A stretch of DNA of 63,119 bases, counting the filler. It is 9 parts of 9 records of this genome, joined end to end, with 100 filler letters (N's around TTAATTAATTAA, not from the genome) between each part and the next. Parts side by side here need not be neighbours in the genome. Positions count along the whole stretch, not along the records: positions 9,306 to 15,378 come from SRR31156797_84297; 8 more parts are not named here. One strand, given 5' to 3'. Below are positions 9,206-15,597 of this stretch, one piece after another (position 1 is the first letter of the stretch; every line of letters begins with the position of its first letter). The notes under the pieces were generated by a model. It was not told where the DNA came from and made no database searches. It saw nothing but the letters and a program-made list of their open reading frames with translations. The position numbers and the translations under genes are program-made.

Positions 9206-9305
9206 NNNNNNNNNNNNNNNNNNNNNNNNNNNNNNNNNNNNNNNNNNNNTTAATTAATTAANNNNNNNNNNNNNNNNNNNNNNNNNNNNNNNNNNNNNNN
9301 NNNNN
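9206..9305. other. Artificial contig spacer
   Basis: 44 N + TTAATTAATTAA (stops in all six frames) + 44 N. Confidence 0.98.
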
Positions 9306-9325
9306 GAATCCTGCCGGGCGCGCCA
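9306..9325 (+). tRNA. 3' end of tRNA-Arg (truncated gene or duplicated att core)
   Basis: GAATCCTGC-CGGGCGC-G-CCA = T-loop end, T-stem, acceptor 3' strand complementary to GCGCCCG, discriminator G, CCA; anticodon not visible. Confidence 0.75.
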
Positions 9326-9339
9326 ATAAAATCAAGGGG

Positions 9340-10575
9340 TTAGCTCACTTTGAGCCGCCCCTTTGTTGCTTCAAAATCGGCAATTGTGCCCAAATTGTGC
9401 CCACGCTGTGATTCCAAGTATGCGTGCTGGCGCTCGGCAGCAAGTTTCAAATCAGCATCATTAACGATATTGTAGCGATCAAAAACCGATCTCGTTTTGT
9501 GGCCTGATACCATCATCGCAACCCTTTCTGGAACACCTGACCTGACCATATTTCTAACCGCTGTGCGACGGAAATCATGGAAGATGGGACCTGCAGGAAG
9601 TTTGCCTTGCCATTTCAAAACATATTCGATGCTGATTCGATAACCAAACCCAAGCTTTGCCTTTCGACAAGCCTCGTTCCATGCTTTTCTGAGATTGACA
9701 ATTGAGCCCTTGCCACTTTTGTTGGGAAAGACGAATGGCGTGATCCTGGAAGATTTTTTACGATTTTTCCAAAGCTCATCAAAAAGCTCCTTCAACTCCG
9801 GATCAAGGTATACCGTCCTGGCCTCATTGTTTTTTGTTTCCCCAACTTCCAAAGTCACAATTCCGTTTGTCCGGTCCACATTTTCACTCCATTTCAAAGA
9901 TGCAATTTCCTTATCGCGCCAACCGACCTTGTATCCAAAAGTCACGAATGGCTTCAGGTATTCAGGCAATTCATCTCTTAGGGCAATAAACTGAGCATGC
10001 TCAAAAAAACCTTTTCGGGTATTGTTTTCTTTAAGCATTGGAATATACGGAACTCGGTCAACTTTTGGAGGTGTTTGCTTGGCTCCAAGATTAAGCATAC
10101 GCCGTAGCGCAGACAATTCCCGATTTACCGTCGCGTTAGCAGCCCCCTTTTTTAGCTTCGTCACCCCACATTTAGGGCAATGGTGCTCGCCGTTGAAATG
10201 AAATTTGAATTCGCAACTCTTGCAAGTCCATTTCATCCTTTCGGAAACGTAAGCTTGAATAGCAGGGGTGGTGATACTGGGAACCTTTGAATTTCCAAAT
10301 TCGGAGCTCAAATGTCCAACGCTGAGTTTTGCTCTATCCAGCGACTTTTTGTTGTTTATCTGGTAATCCCTCAGAAAGTCAGCTGCAAGCTCATCAAATG
10401 TAACTTTGTCAAACAAAATGCCAGGCATCTTACCTTGAGCAATTTCACCCTCCTTTCTTTCCAAGAGCTTTTTGGCAACCATCTTCTTGGTGCTTTTAGT
10501 GCTCTCGCGATAAGATTTTCCGTTGCGATAATACTTAATCCACCAAACATTGCCTCTTTTAAACAAAGAACCCAT
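9340..10575 (-). CDS. Tyrosine recombinase/integrase with an internal zinc-ribbon insertion
   Basis: Catalytic R (GWRDKEI), HDFRR, SGHKT, RY; N-terminal arm-binding-like MGSLFKRGNVWWIKYY; SD AGGAGAG before ATG 10575 (frame open to TTG 10665). Confidence 0.95.
   Translation of the reverse strand: MGSLFKRGNVWWIKYYRNGKSYRESTKSTKKMVAKKLLERKEGEIAQGKMPGILFDKVTFDELAADFLRDYQINNKKSLDRAKLSVGHLSSEFGNSKVPSITTPAIQAYVSERMKWTCKSCEFKFHFNGEHHCPKCGVTKLKKGAANATVNRELSALRRMLNLGAKQTPPKVDRVPYIPMLKENNTRKGFFEHAQFIALRDELPEYLKPFVTFGYKVGWRDKEIASLKWSENVDRTNGIVTLEVGETKNNEARTVYLDPELKELFDELWKNRKKSSRITPFVFPNKSGKGSIVNLRKAWNEACRKAKLGFGYRISIEYVLKWQGKLPAGPIFHDFRRTAVRNMVRSGVPERVAMMVSGHKTRSVFDRYNIVNDADLKLAAERQHAYLESQRGHNLGTIADFEATKGRLKVS
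9382..9403. repeat. Tandem 11-bp direct repeat AATTGTGCCCA x2, probable integrase arm-type site
   Basis: Perfect tandem repeat about 60 bp from the tRNA CCA, inside the int 3' end. Confidence 0.6.
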
Positions 10576-10661
10576 ATACTCTCCTATCCGCCTTGACGGG
10601 CACTGATAGGCAAAATGAAAATTCTCACTATTCTTAAAGTCACGCAATAGGAAAATGGTAC

Positions 10662-10865
10662 TCAATATTGGATCTTGTTCTTTTTGATAAATATTTCAAT
10701 GTCTTTACTGTCTACTAAAATTTTTCTGCCAACCTGAATGAAGGGAAGTTTTCCGTCCCATATTTGACTTCTCCAAAACCATTCAGTAACACCGATAAAC
10801 GAGACCAACTCCTTGATGGAGTAAAGTCGTTTGTGGAAAAGTGGATTTGGAGATTCGGTTTGCAT
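10662..10865 (-). CDS. Excisionase / HTH_17-type DNA-binding protein
   Basis: 67 aa, LYSIKEL..FIG.....WR..I..GKLP.IQVGRKILV; directly upstream of int. Confidence 0.85.
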   Translation of the reverse strand: MQTESPNPLFHKRLYSIKELVSFIGVTEWFWRSQIWDGKLPFIQVGRKILVDSKDIEIFIKKNKIQY

Positions 10866-10903
10866 GTAAAGTCCTAGTAAAATAGCTATTTCAAAAACTC
10901 ATC

Positions 10904-11155
10904 CTATCTTTTGTAAACTCTTCCTCGCTTGTCTAAAATCCTGACAATCAATTTTTTGTTTTCAAAATCTACATCAATTATGGCCCTATAACTGCCAATG
11001 CGGAATTTATAGCCGCCGCCTGCAAAATGCTCCAAATACCGGAAAGGATTTTCTTTAATATTTTCAACTTTCTTCCAAATCCTTAGAGCATCCTTCTGAG
11101 GTAATTTCTTCAAACTGTTCGCAGCCTTGTTAGTCCAATGAACTTGATAGTTCAT
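10904..11155 (-). CDS. Type II toxin, RelE/ParE family
   Basis: Y.V.W...A...LKKL....RI..K...NP....YKFRIGSYR.I...RG.VYK pattern. Confidence 0.88.
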   Translation of the reverse strand: MNYQVHWTNKAANSLKKLPQKDALRIWKKVENIKENPFRYLEHFAGGGYKFRIGSYRAIIDVDFENKKLIVRILDKRGRVYKR

Positions 11156-11364
11156 TTTTCCAGAATCATTTGTTTAACCTCTTCAGAAAAAATCAATTCA
11201 GAATCAGGTATTTGCCTTGCTTCAGCTAATTCATTTTTCGCCCAGTCGGTAATTTCACCCTCTGGATCATTTCTATTCGCGGTTAAAATTTCCTTGATTA
11301 GAGCCACATCACGCAAAAGCTGGTTAAATTTTTCTGCTTCGACAGTTATTTCTTCAGTTGCCAT
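11152..11364 (-). CDS. Putative antitoxin (acidic, 70 aa)
   Basis: Small acidic ORF with ATGA overlap onto the relE-like gene. Confidence 0.75.
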   Translation of the reverse strand: MATEEITVEAEKFNQLLRDVALIKEILTANRNDPEGEITDWAKNELAEARQIPDSELIFSEEVKQMILEK

Positions 11365-11426
11365 AACCTATTTAACCTACTAACATTTAAATAATTATCG
11401 AGAGCCTCATGTTTTAGGTAATTTAT

Positions 11427-12212
11427 TCACCTCACGTTCCGAACATTTACAACATCTGCTCCCATGTCATGAAAATAATTCTCCCAAAATGATAAATGAC
11501 GTTTTCCCTGAATCCTGCCCAATTTGTCCCGAAGCAAATACACAATCTTGATGTCTACAGAATTCAGACTGGTAGCGATTTCGTATGAATATGATCTTTT
11601 GGAAAAATAATTGTATTCAACCGAATTTTTATAATGGGAATATTCAGGAGTATTGTGCATCATGTCAGATATGATGATAAGTGTCCTATTTTCAATGGTG
11701 TCATTAAAATCATCTCTGAGAGACAATTCCCTGATCATTTCTAAAATAGGCGACTTAGAGCCCGTGCTGTCAGAGAGCATGTTTTTCATGTTTTCTTCAA
11801 GAGGCTCGGAAAAAAACTCGTCGAAACGCATCTGGATTTTTCTTGGGTTTTGATAAAGCTCATTTGCATCTTTTCCAGATCCAGGATTACATTTTGAAAA
11901 TATAGGATCAGGAGTCATGTATGTATTTTCAGTTAGCGTAAAAATGGAAAGCTTTTCAGAGGTGTCCAAAACATCCTTTTCCATGTTGATATAATTCGGT
12001 ATAAATTTTTGTTGGTTAGCACTCAGCGAATCCGTTTTATCTAATACAATAATTGTGTGTGCCGAAATTTCGTCCTGGCACAAAGTGTCAGGATCATACG
12101 GCTTTTCTTTTAATGTAAATGCGGACGTTACGAGTGCGCCGAAAACCAAGAAGCAAACTCCAATGATAATGTAGCCAACAACAGTCTTTTTTTCTTTGTT
12201 TAATGTTTTCAT
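11427..12212 (-). CDS. Membrane-anchored vWA-like hypothetical protein
   Basis: N-terminal TM helix; MIDAS-like IIVLDKTDS, SPI, LIIISDM. Confidence 0.7.
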   Translation of the reverse strand: MKTLNKEKKTVVGYIIIGVCFLVFGALVTSAFTLKEKPYDPDTLCQDEISAHTIIVLDKTDSLSANQQKFIPNYINMEKDVLDTSEKLSIFTLTENTYMTPDPIFSKCNPGSGKDANELYQNPRKIQMRFDEFFSEPLEENMKNMLSDSTGSKSPILEMIRELSLRDDFNDTIENRTLIIISDMMHNTPEYSHYKNSVEYNYFSKRSYSYEIATSLNSVDIKIVYLLRDKLGRIQGKRHLSFWENYFHDMGADVVNVRNVR

Positions 12213-12232
12213 TTTCTCCCTCCGTATAAGGT

Positions 12233-13573
12233 TTACTTGGTTTTTACGAAAAACTGTTTTACATCCTCCAAGGCTTTCTCGTTGGTTTTCCTTAGGCTAT
12301 CACTGAGTTTCGACTCCTCATCTCTTTGGATTTTGTTGAACTGAGATTTTGCTTTATTCCATATTGTTTTTTCTTCTGACAAATCAGGTTCAAGTAGGTA
12401 TTTGCTGAAGGAATGATTGTTTGAAAAATAGGCGGGAGGCTTGCTTGTTCTGACTCGCACATTCGCATTCCGGTATTCCCACAATGCGTTATTGCATGTG
12501 TTTTCAGAGGCCTTTACAAGTTTTTCAAATTTCGAAATGATCTCCTCGCTTTGAAAGATTGTGTCCTTGTAATTAACAAGGCTTTGTTTGGCATTTTGAA
12601 CAGAGGCTGAGGCTTGTCTGCCATGGTCATCAATAATGTTATTGATGGATTTCATTGCCTCAATTCTTTTCCCAGTGTGATTCGAGGCGTTTTGGAGTTT
12701 TCGATGAACTTCTCCAAAACCAGGATAGACGTCATCAGATCTGTAGCCTTTAATTAAGGCAACAATCACAAAGAGCATTCCGATGATCAGCAAATTCCAA
12801 GCTTCAAAATTTATCCCAAATGGATCTTCAATTAGATGAGGAATGGTAGCAGCCGCTGCTGTCAATGGATCATCTTCAAGTAGGGTCCTGTAATGGGCCG
12901 CCCCAAGATTGAAGATAAAAATGAATAGGATATAAGAAGTTGTGGCAATTTTTGCTCTGGATTTTTTCTTCGAATCGACATGATTTTTAAAGGGAATAAC
13001 ATAAATACCGATAAGCAAGGCCGAGCCGATATTTGATATGGAGATAAAAAGGGCTTGAAATAATCCACCAAGAAGACCGAGATCACTTGCACTTGCAAAG
13101 AAAAAACTGTTCACAATTGATTCGATTAAGACTGCCAGAATAATAAATGCCCAGTGCAATACCTGTGAATCAGGGTAAGAGGCCTCTCTTTTTAGTTTGT
13201 TTTGTGTTGTGAAGTAATTATAATCGCGTAGTGCAGCGCTTTCTTCTTGTTTTGCCTTATTTAAAATTTCATGTAGCTGCGCCTTCAGGCGAACAATTTT
13301 ATTTTTAGCTGACTCAGCTATTTGATTTAGAGAGAAGCCTTCAACGTCTTTTAATATTAGACTCCGAGTAGCATCTAATCTATTCAAGTCTTCTAAGGCC
13401 GAAAGGCGAGATTCCATTATTTCGTTAGACATAATATCGACAACGTTTTGTTGGTAAATGTCTAACTCGGTATCATTTGTTTTTGGACATTCATTCATTG
13501 CCTGATTTGCCGCATTTTCAGACAACTTCAGTTCCTCCTGAATCGATCTTGCGTCGAGCGCAATAGAAGTCAT
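12233..13573 (-). CDS. Hypothetical 4-TM membrane protein with N- and C-terminal coiled coils
   Basis: Four hydrophobic segments at about aa 138-275 flanked by helical charged regions; SD GGGAGG. Confidence 0.8.
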   Translation of the reverse strand: MTSIALDARSIQEELKLSENAANQAMNECPKTNDTELDIYQQNVVDIMSNEIMESRLSALEDLNRLDATRSLILKDVEGFSLNQIAESAKNKIVRLKAQLHEILNKAKQEESAALRDYNYFTTQNKLKREASYPDSQVLHWAFIILAVLIESIVNSFFFASASDLGLLGGLFQALFISISNIGSALLIGIYVIPFKNHVDSKKKSRAKIATTSYILFIFIFNLGAAHYRTLLEDDPLTAAAATIPHLIEDPFGINFEAWNLLIIGMLFVIVALIKGYRSDDVYPGFGEVHRKLQNASNHTGKRIEAMKSINNIIDDHGRQASASVQNAKQSLVNYKDTIFQSEEIISKFEKLVKASENTCNNALWEYRNANVRVRTSKPPAYFSNNHSFSKYLLEPDLSEEKTIWNKAKSQFNKIQRDEESKLSDSLRKTNEKALEDVKQFFVKTK

Positions 13574-13588
13574 GGTATACCTCCCAAT

Positions 13589-15378
13589 TCAAATTAGCTT
13601 TTCTGGAAAATTTAATAGTTCGTGGACAACACACGTTTTTACTTTACTGATAGACTTAATTTTTTTGCTTAATTCTTTGTCAAGTTTGGTTTTGGTCTTT
13701 TTGTCAGGTGTCGCAATGATTAAAATATCACAACTGCCTATGTCCTTTTGAACATTCAAATATTCAGTCTTGATCGTTGTGCAACAGATCTCTATCCCGA
13801 TCTTTAAATCCCTAAATTTTCCAAACAAATCGATTCTTTTCCCTTGGATATTTTTCTCAATTTCCAATTCAGAAAATCCTTTCTCTGGCAAATGCTTTTT
13901 CAAATACCGTTGAAGGAAAAAATGCATTGGTCCAGTTCCACCTGGTTGCTTTGGTGGAATTTTACTTATGGACTCATAGCCCTTAGGATTAGTGAGAACA
14001 TAGAATTTCGATGTTTTTCCCCTGCCGCCTGCAAGATTTAATCGGACAACCTCGACTAATTGCTCACTCTCAATGTATTTGAAAATTTTGTTTGACGAAG
14101 ATGCACTGAGTCCAAAGTCATTAGCTCTCATAGTAGAGGCAACATCAAACCTGTTAAAAATGTCCAAAAGCATGTCTTTGGATTTTCCAAACATTTGGTC
14201 CGTTTTGGATTGTGATTCTTTTTTGTCAGTATACTCAGGTATACTTTTAGAAATTTCCAAGAAAGGAAGGTCTGATTCAGTTGCGTGTTTTACTGCTCCC
14301 AATAATTTTTTGACCCTTTCATCTGTGGCGTTTTCTTCATCAATCTTTCTATCCGAAAAATTTTCTGGCTTTACAAAAGGGAATTTGATTAATTGTGGGA
14401 AGGGATATCTGCCGCCAAGTCTTATTATGCCTTGGCCGACATCTAAGAAATTAACAACTTGGGCCTGTTCAGAATCTAGCCCTAATACACTGATCATCTC
14501 TCGTCGATCCTTTTGACCAACCTGGTTCATCCCAATAATTGTATAGGTATTGCTTTTTACAACGTTATCAATGGTGGTAATACATTGGTCGGCAAGTACT
14601 ATGGCTTCACCGTATTCTCGCAATCTACGAATACAGCTAAGAATATAGGACTCGCGACCGATGCCTCCGCTTGCACCGACAACATGAGCGGCTTCATCTA
14701 AGAAAAAAACATGACGAAGCTTACCAAAGGACATGGGGCGGGCTTCTCGGTAGGAGGCTATTGCTGCTAAGATAAGAGAAATCAGCCAGTATTGGATTTC
14801 TGCAGATTTTATTCCAACTAATTCAATGCAGACGGGATATTTCAACAAATGATCGATTGGTATACCTTCATGGACATTGATCATTTTGTCTAAGGTGATA
14901 CAGACCGCTTTCAATTTGCTGTGTATACCGTTGATATAGCCTCGCTCATTAATTGGAATTTTTGTTTTTAATCTGGCTTCCATAGTGCGAATGAGATCAT
15001 GCATTGTGGGAAACTTTGAAGTTTCATTAGTTTTTCCTTTCTGAAAAAAATGATTTTGAACAAATTCTGTTAAATAAAGTTTCGATGCGGTTCTAAGTCC
15101 AAATAGTTCCGTTGTGATTTCACTAAAAACCATCAGCCATTCTTTTAGGGGTACGCCTTTCGGAGGCTGCAGTGGATTAAATGAGAAGTCTTTGCTCCAC
15201 CTCAAAATCATAAGATCCTTCATATTGGGCTTTAAAAATCTGGAACCAAGTTTTGCAGTATCAAAAATAAGGAATGGAATTCCGAGACGATTGAGCTCCA
15301 GTTGCAAAACTCTTAGAAAGTTTGATTTACCTGAACCTGAAGAGCCGCAAATCAATAAATGCCGAACAAGCTCTTTTA
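13589..15378 (-). CDS. HerA/VirD4-like (DUF87-type) ATPase with C-terminal wHTH and PD-(D/E)xK-like region (5' truncated)
   Basis: RHLLICGSSGSGKS, FFLDEAAH, LREYGEAIVLADQ; tail IEK...RIDL...IGIEI. Confidence 0.82.
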
Positions 15379-15478
15379 NNNNNNNNNNNNNNNNNNNNNN
15401 NNNNNNNNNNNNNNNNNNNNNNTTAATTAATTAANNNNNNNNNNNNNNNNNNNNNNNNNNNNNNNNNNNNNNNNNNNN
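15379..15478. other. Artificial contig spacer
   Basis: N44-TTAATTAATTAA-N44. Confidence 0.98.
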
Positions 15479-15523
15479 CCTACTGATTACGAATCAGTTG
15501 CTCTACCACTGAGCTAAGGCGGC
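15479..15523 (-). tRNA. tRNA-Thr(CGT), 5' portion (truncated by contig edge)
   Basis: Reverse complement GCCGCCTTAGCTCAGTGGTAGAGCA-ACTGA-TTCGTAA-TCAGT-AGG: D-arm and anticodon arm with CGT. Confidence 0.9.
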
Positions 15524-15597
15524 ACCGTGAGGCGCCCTTTACTACAGCGCCAGCCCCCCGCCGTCAACGATGCGAAGGGCCGAAATCAAGGCCCGGT

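What the first reader, a model, noticed from the sequence alone, without database searches (positions are those of the whole stretch)
11427..15378. Candidate undescribed system: ATPase-nuclease + 4-TM coiled-coil + membrane vWA operon on a tRNA-integrated element
Seen: three co-oriented genes with 15- and 20-bp gaps and strong SDs, directly upstream of TA-xis-int. They encode (i) a HerA/VirD4-like P-loop ATPase with a wHTH/nuclease-like tail, (ii) a 446-aa protein with four TM helices between long coiled coils, and (iii) a membrane-anchored protein with a MIDAS-like DKTDS...SD motif and two extra-membrane Cys. Known: HerA-type ATPases, vWA domains and TM effectors recur in anti-phage systems, and island cargo next to integrases is defence-rich. 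I recognise no named system with this combination. Inference: a new envelope-associated defence/exclusion module, or a minimal DNA-transfer apparatus.
Basis: partly seen in the sequence, partly recalled or inferred. Interest (0 to 1): 0.78.

Follow-up and report, generated by a model that had tools for sequence, protein, structure and literature searches.

The report
ATPase plus conserved membrane pair island
A small island next to a tRNA gene carries a DNA-pump-like ATPase joined to two membrane proteins of a large unnamed family that elsewhere sits beside a proton-driven motor, which points to an undescribed envelope machine, possibly for defence.

Summary
The three genes are real, co-oriented and tightly spaced (15 and 20 nt, GGAGG-type ribosome sites). 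The window is nine contigs joined by N spacers. The finding lies on one 6.1-kb, 39% GC contig whose end cuts about 62 codons off the ATPase. Relatives show the operon has five genes: small TM protein, Cys-rich protein, HerA/FtsK-type ATPase with a conserved C-terminal tail, 4-TM coiled-coil protein (c0) and an anchored vWA-fold protein (c1).

The trio is conserved only in a narrow Desulfobacterales-like clade (6 of 80 genome loci), always beside an integrase. The universal unit is the c0-c1 pair (72 of 80 loci). The c0 family is large (4170 representatives at 50% identity) and has no Pfam, NCBIfam or PADLOC model. Outside that clade the pair is followed by a MotA/ZorA-like and a MotB-like membrane protein, not by the ATPase, and 10 of 80 loci have an exported SNase nuclease within 2 kb.

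No named system matches. My best reading (about 0.4) is an envelope-anchored anti-DNA (defence or exclusion) system in which c0-c1 couples to an ATP-driven or a proton-driven power module. Function is untested. DNA translocation and a non-defence envelope role remain live rivals.

The parts
9306..9325 (+). 3' end (T-arm, acceptor arm, CCA) of a tRNA-Arg-like gene, cut by the contig start; presumed integration site
   Evidence: Sequence GAATCCTGCCGGGCGCGCCA. The acceptor arm and CCA are identical to the tRNA-Arg(tct) next to the integrase in L004. ARAGORN finds no whole tRNA in the window. A tRNA lies beside the integrase in 5 of 6 related loci.
9340..10665 (-). Tyrosine integrase
   Evidence: Pfam Phage_integrase 3.6e-17.
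10662..10865 (-). Excisionase-like small HTH protein
   Evidence: Pfam HTH_17 6.2e-6, 26.8 bits against a cut-off of 27. Overlaps the integrase start by 4 nt.
10904..11155 (-). ParE/RelE-family toxin of a type II toxin-antitoxin pair
   Evidence: Pfam ParE_toxin 5.5e-8.
11152..11364 (-). Putative antitoxin (70 aa), overlapping the toxin start by 4 nt
   Evidence: ORF position; no Pfam hit; the role is inferred from position.
11427..12212 (-). c1: N-terminal membrane anchor plus a periplasm-facing vWA-fold domain (261 aa)
   Evidence: AF2 pLDDT 92.5. Foldseek top hits are vWA domains (2x5n 2e-4; BatA 4jdu; BatB 3ibs). VIA Z 12.7/12.5 to vWA chains 8s05_B and 4fx5. Invariant C45, C108, S182 and near-invariant D58, D183 in 55 sequences. 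No Pfam, PADLOC or NCBIfam hit.
12233..13573 (-). c0: 446-aa protein with four TM helices between two long cytoplasmic helical hairpins; large family with no model
   Evidence: AF2 pLDDT 92.3, helices 137-160, 167-191, 201-234 and 256-277 plus long helices 39-124 and 300-445. Invariant P30, E151, N155, G166, G170, R229, D281, P284 in 60 sequences. 4170 representatives at E <= 1e-3. No Pfam family in more than 3 of 60 members.
13589..15378 (-). HerA/FtsK-superfamily ATPase with a conserved C-terminal tail (wHTH-like plus PD-(D/E)xK-like motifs); 5' end cut by the contig end
   Evidence: Walker A GSSGSGKS and Walker B FFLDEA. Pfam DUF87 3.4e-7. PADLOC mad8 8.5e-12. NCBIfam CedB 4e-10, 39 bits against a cut-off of 700. 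Aligns to residues 63-653 of a 656-aa homologue. Tail invariants H543, E565, K571, D574, E587, E596, N599, K602, D608, D616, K618.

Best explanation
The contig carries the 3' three genes of a five-gene operon. The operon is the conserved cargo of a family of integrase-bearing islands that sit next to tRNA genes in Desulfobacterales-like bacteria. Its gene order is: small 1-TM protein (c8), Cys-rich protein (c9), HerA/FtsK-type ATPase with a DNA-binding/nuclease-like tail, 4-TM coiled-coil protein (c0), and an inner-membrane-anchored periplasmic vWA protein (c1).

I read it as an envelope-anchored system that acts on incoming DNA (phage or plasmid defence, or exclusion). In this reading c0 and c1 form a transmembrane unit. 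Its periplasmic face is the vWA domain plus the acidic c0 loops. Its cytoplasmic face is a long helical stalk. The stalk positions or activates the ring ATPase at the membrane, and the ATPase tail binds and cuts DNA.

In the far more common sister cassette the same c0-c1 unit is coupled to a proton-driven MotA/MotB (ZorAB-like) stator, often with an exported SNase nuclease next to it.

Shown: gene order, conservation, folds, topology signals, the absence of any named-system match, and the alternative partners. Inferred: physical coupling, nuclease activity, the trigger, and the defence role.
For: Operon:
- Gaps of 15 and 20 nt with ribosome-binding sites.
- The same order c8-c9-ATPase-c0-c1 in 5 of 5 related loci that have room (L001, L002, L003, L005, L006). 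L004 is cut inside the ATPase.
- An integrase lies downstream in 6 of 6 and a tRNA in 5 of 6.

ATPase:
- DUF87/HerA above the Pfam cut-off.
- All 14 full-length members of 23 scanned hit DUF87 and FtsK_SpoIIIE.
- PADLOC mad8 at 8.5e-12, and 8.6e-15 for the full-length L001 protein. MAD7/MAD8 is described as an ATPase-nuclease module required for MADS defence (PMC13662399, passages read).
- The tail has invariant acidic, Lys and His residues in an order like E...D...ExC...K.
- Weak protein-atlas leads to wHTH (GntR/MarR, 0.85) and Replic_Relax (0.83) clusters.

c0-c1 unit:
- c1 lies directly after c0 in 72 of 80 loci. Of the 8 misses, 6 are contig ends and 2 are c0 fragments.
- vWA fold for c1.
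- Invariant Cys pair, and a Lys-rich N-terminus before the anchor (read from the sequence), place the vWA domain in the periplasm.
- c0 has invariant E151 and N155 inside TM1.

Sister cassette:
- c2 against a MotA/ExbB/TolQ profile gives P 7.2e-5 over both signature motifs. Controls give 0.11-0.45.
- c3/c4 have an acidic residue in the TM helix, in register with the ExbD/TolR Asp.
- OmpA domain in the Rhizobium c3 (1.7e-6).
- ZorA models hit up to 15 of 38 c2 proteins.

DNA and defence context:
- An SNase gene lies within 2 kb of the cassette in 10 of 80 loci, 7 of them within 300 bp. N-terminal stretches that look like signal peptides or lipoprotein signals (my reading, no predictor run) are present in 5 of the 6 clustered ones printed; the sixth is N-terminally short.
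- SNase also lies beside the cassette on Rhizobium pRL11 and in IMG/VR locus L102.
- Within three genes of some cassettes lie GmrSD, type I R-M, Cas6, a reverse transcriptase, caspase-helicase, UvrD-like helicases, transposases and integrases.
Against: - There is no functional test of any kind.
- PADLOC finds nothing for c0, c1, c8 or c9.
- The tail has no Pfam or PDB sequence match, so 'nuclease' rests on a motif pattern in which the usual Lys of ExK is a Cys.
- Many cassette neighbours are housekeeping genes: shikimate kinase, GroEL, tRNA synthetase, thiamine genes. I computed no background rate, so defence-island enrichment is only suggestive.
- The ATPase accompanies c0-c1 in just 6 of 80 loci. 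The pair clearly works without it, and the two modules could act independently.
- No att repeat was found, so the island borders are undefined.
- The best NCBIfam hit of the ATPase is a DNA-import protein (CedB), which fits DNA transport as well as defence.
Confidence: 0.4

Rival explanations
1. It is a DNA translocation device: uptake, island transfer, or entry exclusion by pumping DNA. The FtsK/HerA-type ring with a wHTH tail moves double-stranded DNA through or at a c0 channel. c1 contacts the envelope or a partner cell. In sister cassettes the proton motor supplies the energy and the exported SNase processes the DNA.
For: - The ATPase's best NCBIfam hits are CedB and CedD (DNA import, 4e-10 and 6.8e-7), with weak FtsK, TrwB and TraG hits.
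- PDB FtsK motor hits at E 0.1-0.4.
- The tail looks like a wHTH, as in the FtsK gamma domain and TraB (recalled knowledge; only atlas leads here).
- The operon sits on an element with an integrase and an excisionase-like gene.
- Small TM proteins, a polytopic membrane protein and a HerA-like ATPase together resemble the Ced gene set (recalled).
- An exported nuclease next to 10 of 80 sister cassettes.
Against: - All these scores are far below family cut-offs (CedB 39 bits against 700; TrwB 16.4 against 20.5).
- No relaxase, VirB4, pilin or replication gene in the contig, or among the ORFs of 85 aa or more that I scanned around L001, L003, L005 and L006.
- Most c0-c1 loci have no mobile-element genes beside them.
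- A single inner-membrane complex does not explain passage across the outer membrane.
Confidence: 0.2
2. c0-c1 is a non-defence envelope machine: force transduction, envelope maintenance, adhesion or secretion. It is normally driven by a MotAB/TolQR-like motor, and the island simply carries a variant. The ATPase may serve assembly or remodelling.
For: - The family is very large (4170 representatives).
- It is found next to housekeeping genes in many loci.
- Inner-membrane-tethered periplasmic vWA proteins next to TolQ-like motors have been proposed as force transducers (PMC12204202, passages read).
- Some c3 proteins have an OmpA-like peptidoglycan-binding domain.
- The structural neighbours of c1 include the BatA/BatB membrane vWA proteins.
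Against: - Distribution is patchy across phyla, and the cassette occurs on megaplasmids (22 plasmid records).
- It recurs next to nucleases, R-M, GmrSD, transposases and integrases.
- In the window clade it is cargo of a small island with a toxin-antitoxin pair.
- The c1 anchor lacks the conserved His or Asp that the cited paper uses to define its two vWA transducer families (alignment; paper passages).
Confidence: 0.25
3. The trio is not one system. c8-c9-ATPase and c0-c1 are two independent modules that happen to be neighbours on this island family.
For: c0-c1 occurs without the ATPase in 74 of 80 loci. Distant ATPase relatives on plasmids are annotated alone as DUF87 proteins.
Against: - The same order with gaps of 13-20 nt holds in every member of the clade that has room.
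- All close ATPase relatives come from contigs that, by shared contig lengths, also hold c0 or c1.
- In this clade c0-c1 has lost c2-c3, so it would have no partner at all.
Confidence: 0.1

Closest known systems
Zorya (ZorA/ZorB proton-driven 5:2 motor plus effector genes)
   Same: This applies to the sister cassette only. c2 has a MotA/ExbB-like TM core (hhalign P 7.2e-5) and a long helical tail like ZorA. ZorA models hit up to 15 of 38 c2 proteins. c3 has a MotB-like TM helix with an acidic residue and, in some members, an OmpA domain. A nuclease is often adjacent.
   Different: The window has no ZorA/ZorB-like gene. c0 and c1 match no PADLOC model, ZorC-G included. Hits to ZorA are weak and shared with other coiled-coil models (LmuB 16 of 38). 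The gene order is partners first, then motor. The Pfam MotA_ExbB model itself does not reach c2 at E <= 10.
HerA-type ATPase plus nuclease defence modules (MADS MAD7-MAD8; Sir2-HerA; DUF4297-HerA; archaeal HerA-NurA)
   Same: DUF87/HerA ATPase core. The PADLOC mad8 model matches at 8.5e-12 over 28-290 of 314 positions. PDB sequence hits include HerA 4d2i and the defence HerA entries 8j4u and 8wiv. A nuclease-like part is present.
   Different: The putative nuclease is fused in cis as a tail with no family match. The partners are two membrane proteins, a small TM protein and a Cys-rich protein. No methyltransferase, Sir2 or DUF4297 domain turned up in the Pfam and PADLOC scans of the operon proteins or of the ORFs flanking the related loci, and no other mad model scored better than E 0.03.
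FtsK/TraB/CedB DNA translocases
   Same: Same ATPase superfamily (FtsK_SpoIIIE 5.7e-4; CedB 4e-10). A C-terminal DNA-binding-like domain. Membrane partner proteins. Location on an integrative element.
   Different: Scores are far under the curated cut-offs. The ATPase has no TM segment of its own. There is no relaxase, clt-like repeat or pilus gene. The tail carries nuclease-like motifs.
Inner-membrane-tethered periplasmic vWA proteins (BatA/BatB; the vWA 'force transducers' beside TolQ-like motors, PMC12204202)
   Same: An N-terminal anchor plus a periplasmic vWA fold. In sister cassettes it lies two genes from a MotA/TolQ-like gene.
   Different: No Pfam VWA hit. The MIDAS motif is incomplete. 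The anchor lacks the SHLS/His or Asp features described in that paper (passages read). It is always paired with c0, which that paper's passages do not mention.

Membership tests
HerA/FtsK superfamily P-loop ATPase (Pfam DUF87) | Walker A GxxGxGK[ST] and Walker B hhhhDE | tested here: met
   GSSGSGKS and VFFLDEA in the translation; conserved in the alignment of 23 sequences.
HerA/FtsK superfamily P-loop ATPase (Pfam DUF87) | Profile score above the curated cut-off | tested here: met
   DUF87 31 bits against a cut-off of 23.2. All 14 full-length members of 23 scanned match. PDB HerA 4d2i at 2.2e-4.
HerA/FtsK superfamily P-loop ATPase (Pfam DUF87) | Hexameric ring with DNA-stimulated ATPase or translocase activity | not testable with these tools
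   Needs biochemistry or a structure.
MADS defence system (mad1-mad8) | MAD8-like ATPase | tested here: met
   PADLOC mad8 8.5e-12 (window protein) and 8.6e-15 (full-length L001 protein).
MADS defence system (mad1-mad8) | Eight-gene operon with methyltransferase, kinase, MAD3/MAD4 and MAD7 | tested here: not met
   The operon is c8-c9-ATPase-c0-c1. The other operon proteins have no PADLOC hit. The only other mad hit is mad3 at E 0.031, on the Walker A stretch of the ATPase itself. No methyltransferase among the L001, L003, L005 and L006 flanking ORFs of 85 aa or more that I scanned.
von Willebrand factor A (vWA) domain | Rossmann-like alpha/beta vWA fold | tested here: met
   AF2 pLDDT 92.5. 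The listed Foldseek hits up to E 0.001 (17 counted) are all vWA-type domains. VIA Z 12.7 (rmsd 3.5 A over 155 residues) and 12.5 (2.7 A over 158) to vWA chains.
von Willebrand factor A (vWA) domain | Complete MIDAS motif DxSxS...T...D | tested here: inconclusive
   The family pattern is D58-x-[ST]-[DE]-x. The second Ser is not conserved. S182 is invariant and D183 near-invariant after strand 4. The motif is lost in two Bryobacterales members.
von Willebrand factor A (vWA) domain | Match to Pfam VWA profiles | tested here: not met
   No Pfam family at E <= 0.1 for P0003 or for three distant c1 proteins.
Zorya | ZorA (MotA-like) and ZorB (MotB-like) genes in the operon | tested here: not met
   No c2- or c3-like sequence in the window (tblastn). 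None in L001-L006. No ZorA or ZorB PADLOC hit for the window proteins.
Zorya (sister cassette c0-c1-c2-c3 only) | MotA/ExbB-type TM core in c2 and MotB-type TM Asp/Glu plus a peptidoglycan-binding domain in c3 | tested here: inconclusive
   c2 against a MotA/ExbB/TolQ profile: Prob 62.8%, P 7.2e-5, 46 columns, but the Pfam MotA_ExbB model gives no hit at c2. c3 against ExbD/TolR: P 0.016 over 14 columns with the acidic residue in register. OmpA 1.7e-6 in the Rhizobium c3 and 6.8e-4 in the L045 c3, and no OmpA hit in the other 6 c3 or the 4 c4 proteins scanned in that call.
Conjugative coupling protein / type IV secretion | VirD4/TraG-type profile above cut-off with relaxase and VirB4 nearby | tested here: not met
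   TrwB_AAD_bind 16.4 bits against 20.5; P-loop_TraG 11.7 against 25.8. No relaxase or VirB4 in the contig, or among the ORFs of 85 aa or more scanned around L001, L003, L005 and L006.
Ced DNA import system | CedB equivalog score | tested here: not met
   NF041017 CedB 39 bits against a cut-off of 700.

The most novel reading that the evidence does not exclude
c0-c1 defines a widespread, unnamed class of envelope-spanning sensor/effector units (at least 4000 clusters at 50% identity). These units plug into interchangeable power modules. One is a proton-driven ZorAB-like 5:2 rotary motor. The other, in the window's island family, is an ATP-driven HerA/FtsK ring that carries its own nuclease. 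Together they would form a new family of anti-phage or anti-plasmid systems that act on DNA at the point of entry. That would in effect be a fourth, Zorya-related lineage plus an ATP-powered offshoot.
Probability: 0.25. Interest if true: 0.9.

Novelty: categorically new. Interest (0 to 1): 0.72.

Why it matters
If the reading holds, several things follow.
- A protein pair found in thousands of sequence clusters across Proteobacteria, Acidobacteriota, Desulfobacterota and other phyla would get a first functional frame. It currently has no Pfam, NCBIfam or PADLOC model.
- The pair keeps the same membrane unit while swapping a proton motor for an ATPase. That is a natural experiment on how envelope events are coupled to cytoplasmic DNA-acting enzymes, the open question for Zorya-type systems.
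- It is directly testable, because the cassette is present in a cultured, genetically tractable strain (Rhizobium johnstonii 3841, plasmid pRL11, RL_RS31080-31095).

Even if it is not defence, an unnamed motor-coupled periplasmic vWA machine of this size is worth describing.

Tried and rejected
- **Complex prediction of c0 with c1:** no verdict (score 0.28, mark 0.34). I do not use it either way.
- **Fold of c0:** Foldseek against the PDB gave no match at E <= 0.001. The VIA wide search gave only helical-bundle rows within the stated noise range (best Z 13.0 to a designed bundle; ClyA 9.8; ExbB 8.1). No fold assignment was made.
- **Protein atlas for c0:** only unnamed clusters.
- **Pfam on 60 c0 members:** no family in more than 3 of 60.
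- **ATPase tail:** no PDB sequence hit and no Pfam hit in 23 members.
- **att repeats around the islands:** none convincing. The longest exact matches to the tRNA side were 10-11 nt.
- **A 66-nt periodic array in L006:** it looked like CRISPR but lies inside a leucine-rich-repeat gene (LRR_4 2.3e-93). Rejected.
- **The missing 5' part of the operon (c8, c9, ATPase N-terminus):** not found elsewhere in the window.
- **Phage records:** no c0 relative and one weak ATPase hit.
- **IMG/VR:** one c0 locus (L102), which holds the full cassette, and no ATPase locus.
- **Pfam MotA_ExbB model on three genomes that hold the cassette:** it does not reach c2.
- **No answer available:** the window's whole genome is not held.
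- **Literature:** searches for the Rhizobium locus tags, for Zorya-like or ZorA-like terms, for Zorya with vWA, for MotA/MotB with vWA, and for HerA with membrane terms found no description of this gene set. This covers only the held open-access library.

Full report
**1. What is in the window**

The window is not one stretch of genome. Eight spacers of N44-TTAATTAATTAA-N44 split it into nine contigs with GC from 39% to 62%. The finding lies on contig 9306-15378 (6073 bp, 39% GC), between contigs of 57% and 61% GC. The host of this contig may therefore differ from that of its neighbours.

All genes on this contig are on the minus strand. In order they are:
- a 5'-truncated ATPase (13589 to the contig end);
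- a 446-aa protein (12233-13573, here c0);
- a 261-aa protein (11427-12212, c1);
- a 70-aa ORF overlapping a ParE-family toxin (Pfam 5.5e-8);
- an HTH_17 excisionase-like ORF (6.2e-6);
- a tyrosine integrase (3.6e-17).

The gaps are exactly 15 and 20 nt, and each ATG is preceded by GGGAGG or GGAGGG.

The contig starts with 20 nt that are the 3' end of a tRNA. Its acceptor arm and CCA are the same as in the tRNA-Arg next to the integrase of related locus L004. ARAGORN finds no complete tRNA in the window.

The ATPase frame is open to the contig end, and the protein aligns to residues 63-653 of a 656-aa homologue. About 62 codons and everything upstream are therefore missing. They are not on another contig of the window.

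**2. The three proteins**

*ATPase.* It has Walker A GSSGSGKS and Walker B FFLDEA.
- Pfam DUF87/HerA scores 31 bits against a cut-off of 23.2, with weak FtsK and TrwB hits.
- PADLOC mad8 matches at 8.5e-12.
- NCBIfam CedB matches at 4e-10 but with 39 bits against a cut-off of 700.
- A family profile finds HerA (4d2i, 2.2e-4), two defence-type HerA entries and FtsK among solved structures.

The last 200 residues or so match no family but are strongly conserved. A wHTH-looking stretch is followed by invariant H543, E565, K571, D574, E587 (in GIEIC), E596, N599, K602, D608, D616 and K618. That order is compatible with a PD-(D/E)xK nuclease whose Lys has moved. This is my inference. The only outside hints are weak atlas leads to GntR/MarR (0.85) and Replic_Relax (0.83) clusters.

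*c0.* AF2 with 60 sequences gives pLDDT 92.3. The model has four TM helices (137-160, 167-191, 201-234, 256-277) between a helical hairpin at 39-124 and very long helices at 300-445. The loop charges, read from the sequence, put both helical domains in the cytoplasm. Invariant residues include E151 and N155 inside TM1, G166, G170, R229, D281 and P284. No fold match stands above the noise expected for helical proteins.

*c1.* AF2 with 55 sequences gives pLDDT 92.5. It has an N-terminal helix anchor followed by an alpha/beta domain. The best structural matches of that domain are all vWA domains: Foldseek 2x5n at 2e-4, then BatA, BatB and integrin I domains, and VIA Z 12.7 and 12.5. C45, C108 and S182 are invariant. 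D58 and D183 are nearly so. The Cys pair and a Lys-rich N-terminus point to a periplasmic domain. The MIDAS motif is only partly kept: D-x-[ST]-[DE]-x.

**3. Conservation: the pair, not the trio**

- c1 follows c0 in 72 of 80. Of the 8 misses, 6 have under 700 bp of contig left and 2 are c0 fragments.
- The ATPase is present in 6 of 80 (L001-L006, 57-72% identity). All are MAGs labelled Desulfobacter-type, Pseudomonadota or, in one case, archaeon.
- None of those six has the c2 or c3 genes described below.

In the five of the six with room upstream, the order is c8 (about 95 aa, one TM), c9 (about 160 aa, Cys-rich), ATPase, c0, c1. An integrase follows in 6 of 6 and a tRNA in 5 of 6.

The ATPase exists as one 653-658-aa protein in 12 database clusters at 62-100% identity to the L001 protein, with one more full-length relative at 37%. 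In 13 other clusters it exists as an N-terminal piece plus a piece of about 360 aa, split just after Walker B. In the window it is fused.

The c0 family is large. A profile search finds 4170 representatives at 50% identity with E <= 1e-3, and 2296 with E <= 1e-30. Yet no Pfam family recurs in more than 3 of 60 members.

**4. The usual partners of the pair**

I took the 55 loci without the ATPase that have at least 3.5 kb after c0. Of these, 53 have c1, 44 have c2, 43 have c3 or c4, and 41 have all three. My ORF calling is crude, so these counts are minima.

- *c2* (about 400-500 aa) has three or four N-terminal TM segments and a long helical tail. Its two invariant motifs, YYLGFLxTL and FGxALxTTIxGL, align with the two signature motifs of MotA/ExbB/TolQ. 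Against a profile of 18 such proteins from three of the same genomes, hhalign gives Prob 62.8% and P 7.2e-5 over 46 columns. Four control alignments give P 0.11-0.45. PADLOC ZorA models hit up to 15 of 38 c2 proteins (best 3e-8). Coiled-coil models such as LmuB hit 16 of 38, so part of this signal comes from the tail. The Pfam MotA_ExbB model itself does not reach c2.
- *c3/c4* have an N-terminal TM helix with a conserved Glu or Asp (GLTMAEI or TLVDFL). This aligns in register with the Asp of ExbD/TolR (P 0.016 over 14 columns, weak). Some have an OmpA domain: the Rhizobium protein at 1.7e-6 and the L045 protein at 6.8e-4. Most have instead a domain with two conserved Cys.

The common cassette is therefore c0, c1, a MotA/ZorA-like protein and a MotB-like protein.

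It sits on 22 plasmid records, among them pRL11 of Rhizobium johnstonii 3841 (RL_RS31080-31095, with a thermonuclease gene abutting it). It is in one IMG/VR contig and in no phage record.

An SNase-type gene lies within 2 kb of the cassette in 10 of 80 loci, and within 300 bp in 7. Five of the six clustered ones begin with what look like signal peptides or lipoprotein signals, by my reading with no predictor run; the sixth is N-terminally short.

Other neighbours within three genes include GmrSD, type I R-M, Cas6, a long reverse transcriptase, caspase-helicase fusions, UvrD-like helicases, transposases and integrases. They also include many housekeeping genes. I have no background rate, so this context is suggestive only.

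**5. How it most likely works**

Shown:
- a tight operon;
- a HerA/FtsK-type ATPase;
- a membrane pair with a periplasmic vWA face and a long cytoplasmic stalk;
- strict pairing of c0 with c1;
- two mutually exclusive partner sets (proton motor-like, or ATPase plus c8 and c9);
- recurrent nucleases;
- location on an integrase island with a toxin-antitoxin pair.

Inferred: c0 and c1 form one unit that links an envelope event to a cytoplasmic or periplasmic DNA-acting enzyme. In the window's clade that unit holds or activates the ATPase, whose tail binds and cuts DNA. I put this at about 0.4.

Rivals:
- a DNA translocation device (0.2);
- a non-defence envelope machine of the kind proposed for motor-linked vWA proteins (PMC12204202, passages read) (0.25);
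- two unrelated neighbouring modules (0.1).

**6. Comparison with known systems and novelty**

The closest known things are:
- Zorya, for the sister cassette only;
- HerA-nuclease defence modules such as MADS MAD7-MAD8 (PMC13662399, passages read);
- FtsK/TraB/CedB translocases;
- membrane-tethered vWA proteins.

Each fails at least one defining feature here (see the membership table).

Searches of the held literature for the Rhizobium locus tags, for Zorya-like terms, for Zorya or MotAB with vWA, and for HerA with membrane terms found no description of this gene set. Only listings and the two named papers' passages were read.

I rate the gene set as lying outside every named system. Its parts (HerA ATPase, vWA fold, MotAB-like motor) are familiar, and its function is unproven.

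Noticed in passing
window 9206-9305, 15379-15478 and six further spacers: The window is nine contigs joined by N44-TTAATTAATTAA-N44 spacers, with GC from 39% to 62%. Neighbouring 'context' across a spacer is not genomic context, and the set may mix organisms.
   Followed up: yes
window 15479-15527: By eye, the next contig starts with what looks like a tRNA fragment on the minus strand. Two contigs in a row break at tRNA genes.
   Followed up: no
window about 14662-14675; L003 8009-9981; L005 8021-9987: The ATPase is one ORF in the window and L001, but two overlapping ORFs (about 299 + 358 aa, 4-nt overlap) in L002, L003, L005 and L006. In the database, 12 clusters close to the L001 protein are fused, one more distant relative (37%) is also fused, and 13 clusters are pieces of about 360 aa. 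The split falls just after Walker B.
   Followed up: partly
L044, L047, L048, L051, L053, L057, L065, L067, L071, L080; L081 11311-12054; L102 about 12930-13226: An SNase (thermonuclease) gene recurs next to the four-gene cassette. Most of the clustered ones start with what look like signal peptides, by my reading. L045 has an Endonuclease_NS gene in the same place.
   Followed up: partly
alignment A5 (c3/c4 proteins), e.g. L045 13405-14415, L071, L072, L081 10336-11310: The MotB-like protein swaps its periplasmic C-terminal domain. It is OmpA-like in a few members, a two-Cys domain of no known family in most, and a short form (c4, about 225 aa) in Sphingomonas and Burkholderiales-type loci.
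   Followed up: partly
L001 3549-6561; L005 3174-6138; L003 2824-6532: Upstream of c8 the related islands carry different two-gene modules of unknown function. One is shared by L001 and L005: a protein of about 700 aa whose L005 copy has a weak Peptidase_M48 stretch (no Pfam hit for the L001 copy), plus a protein of about 300 aa. L003 also has a second integrase further up.
   Followed up: partly
hhalign of A6 (c2) against A3 (c0): c2 and c0 profiles align over 277 columns with P 3.8e-4. This could be shared TM-plus-coiled-coil composition or a distant common origin. c0 also carries an LGLLGG motif reminiscent of the LGLLGT motif of ExbB/TolQ (that motif is recalled from memory).
   Followed up: no
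L006 2567-3988: A tandem array with a 66-nt period looked like CRISPR in the repeat scan, but it lies within a 743-aa leucine-rich-repeat gene.
   Followed up: yes
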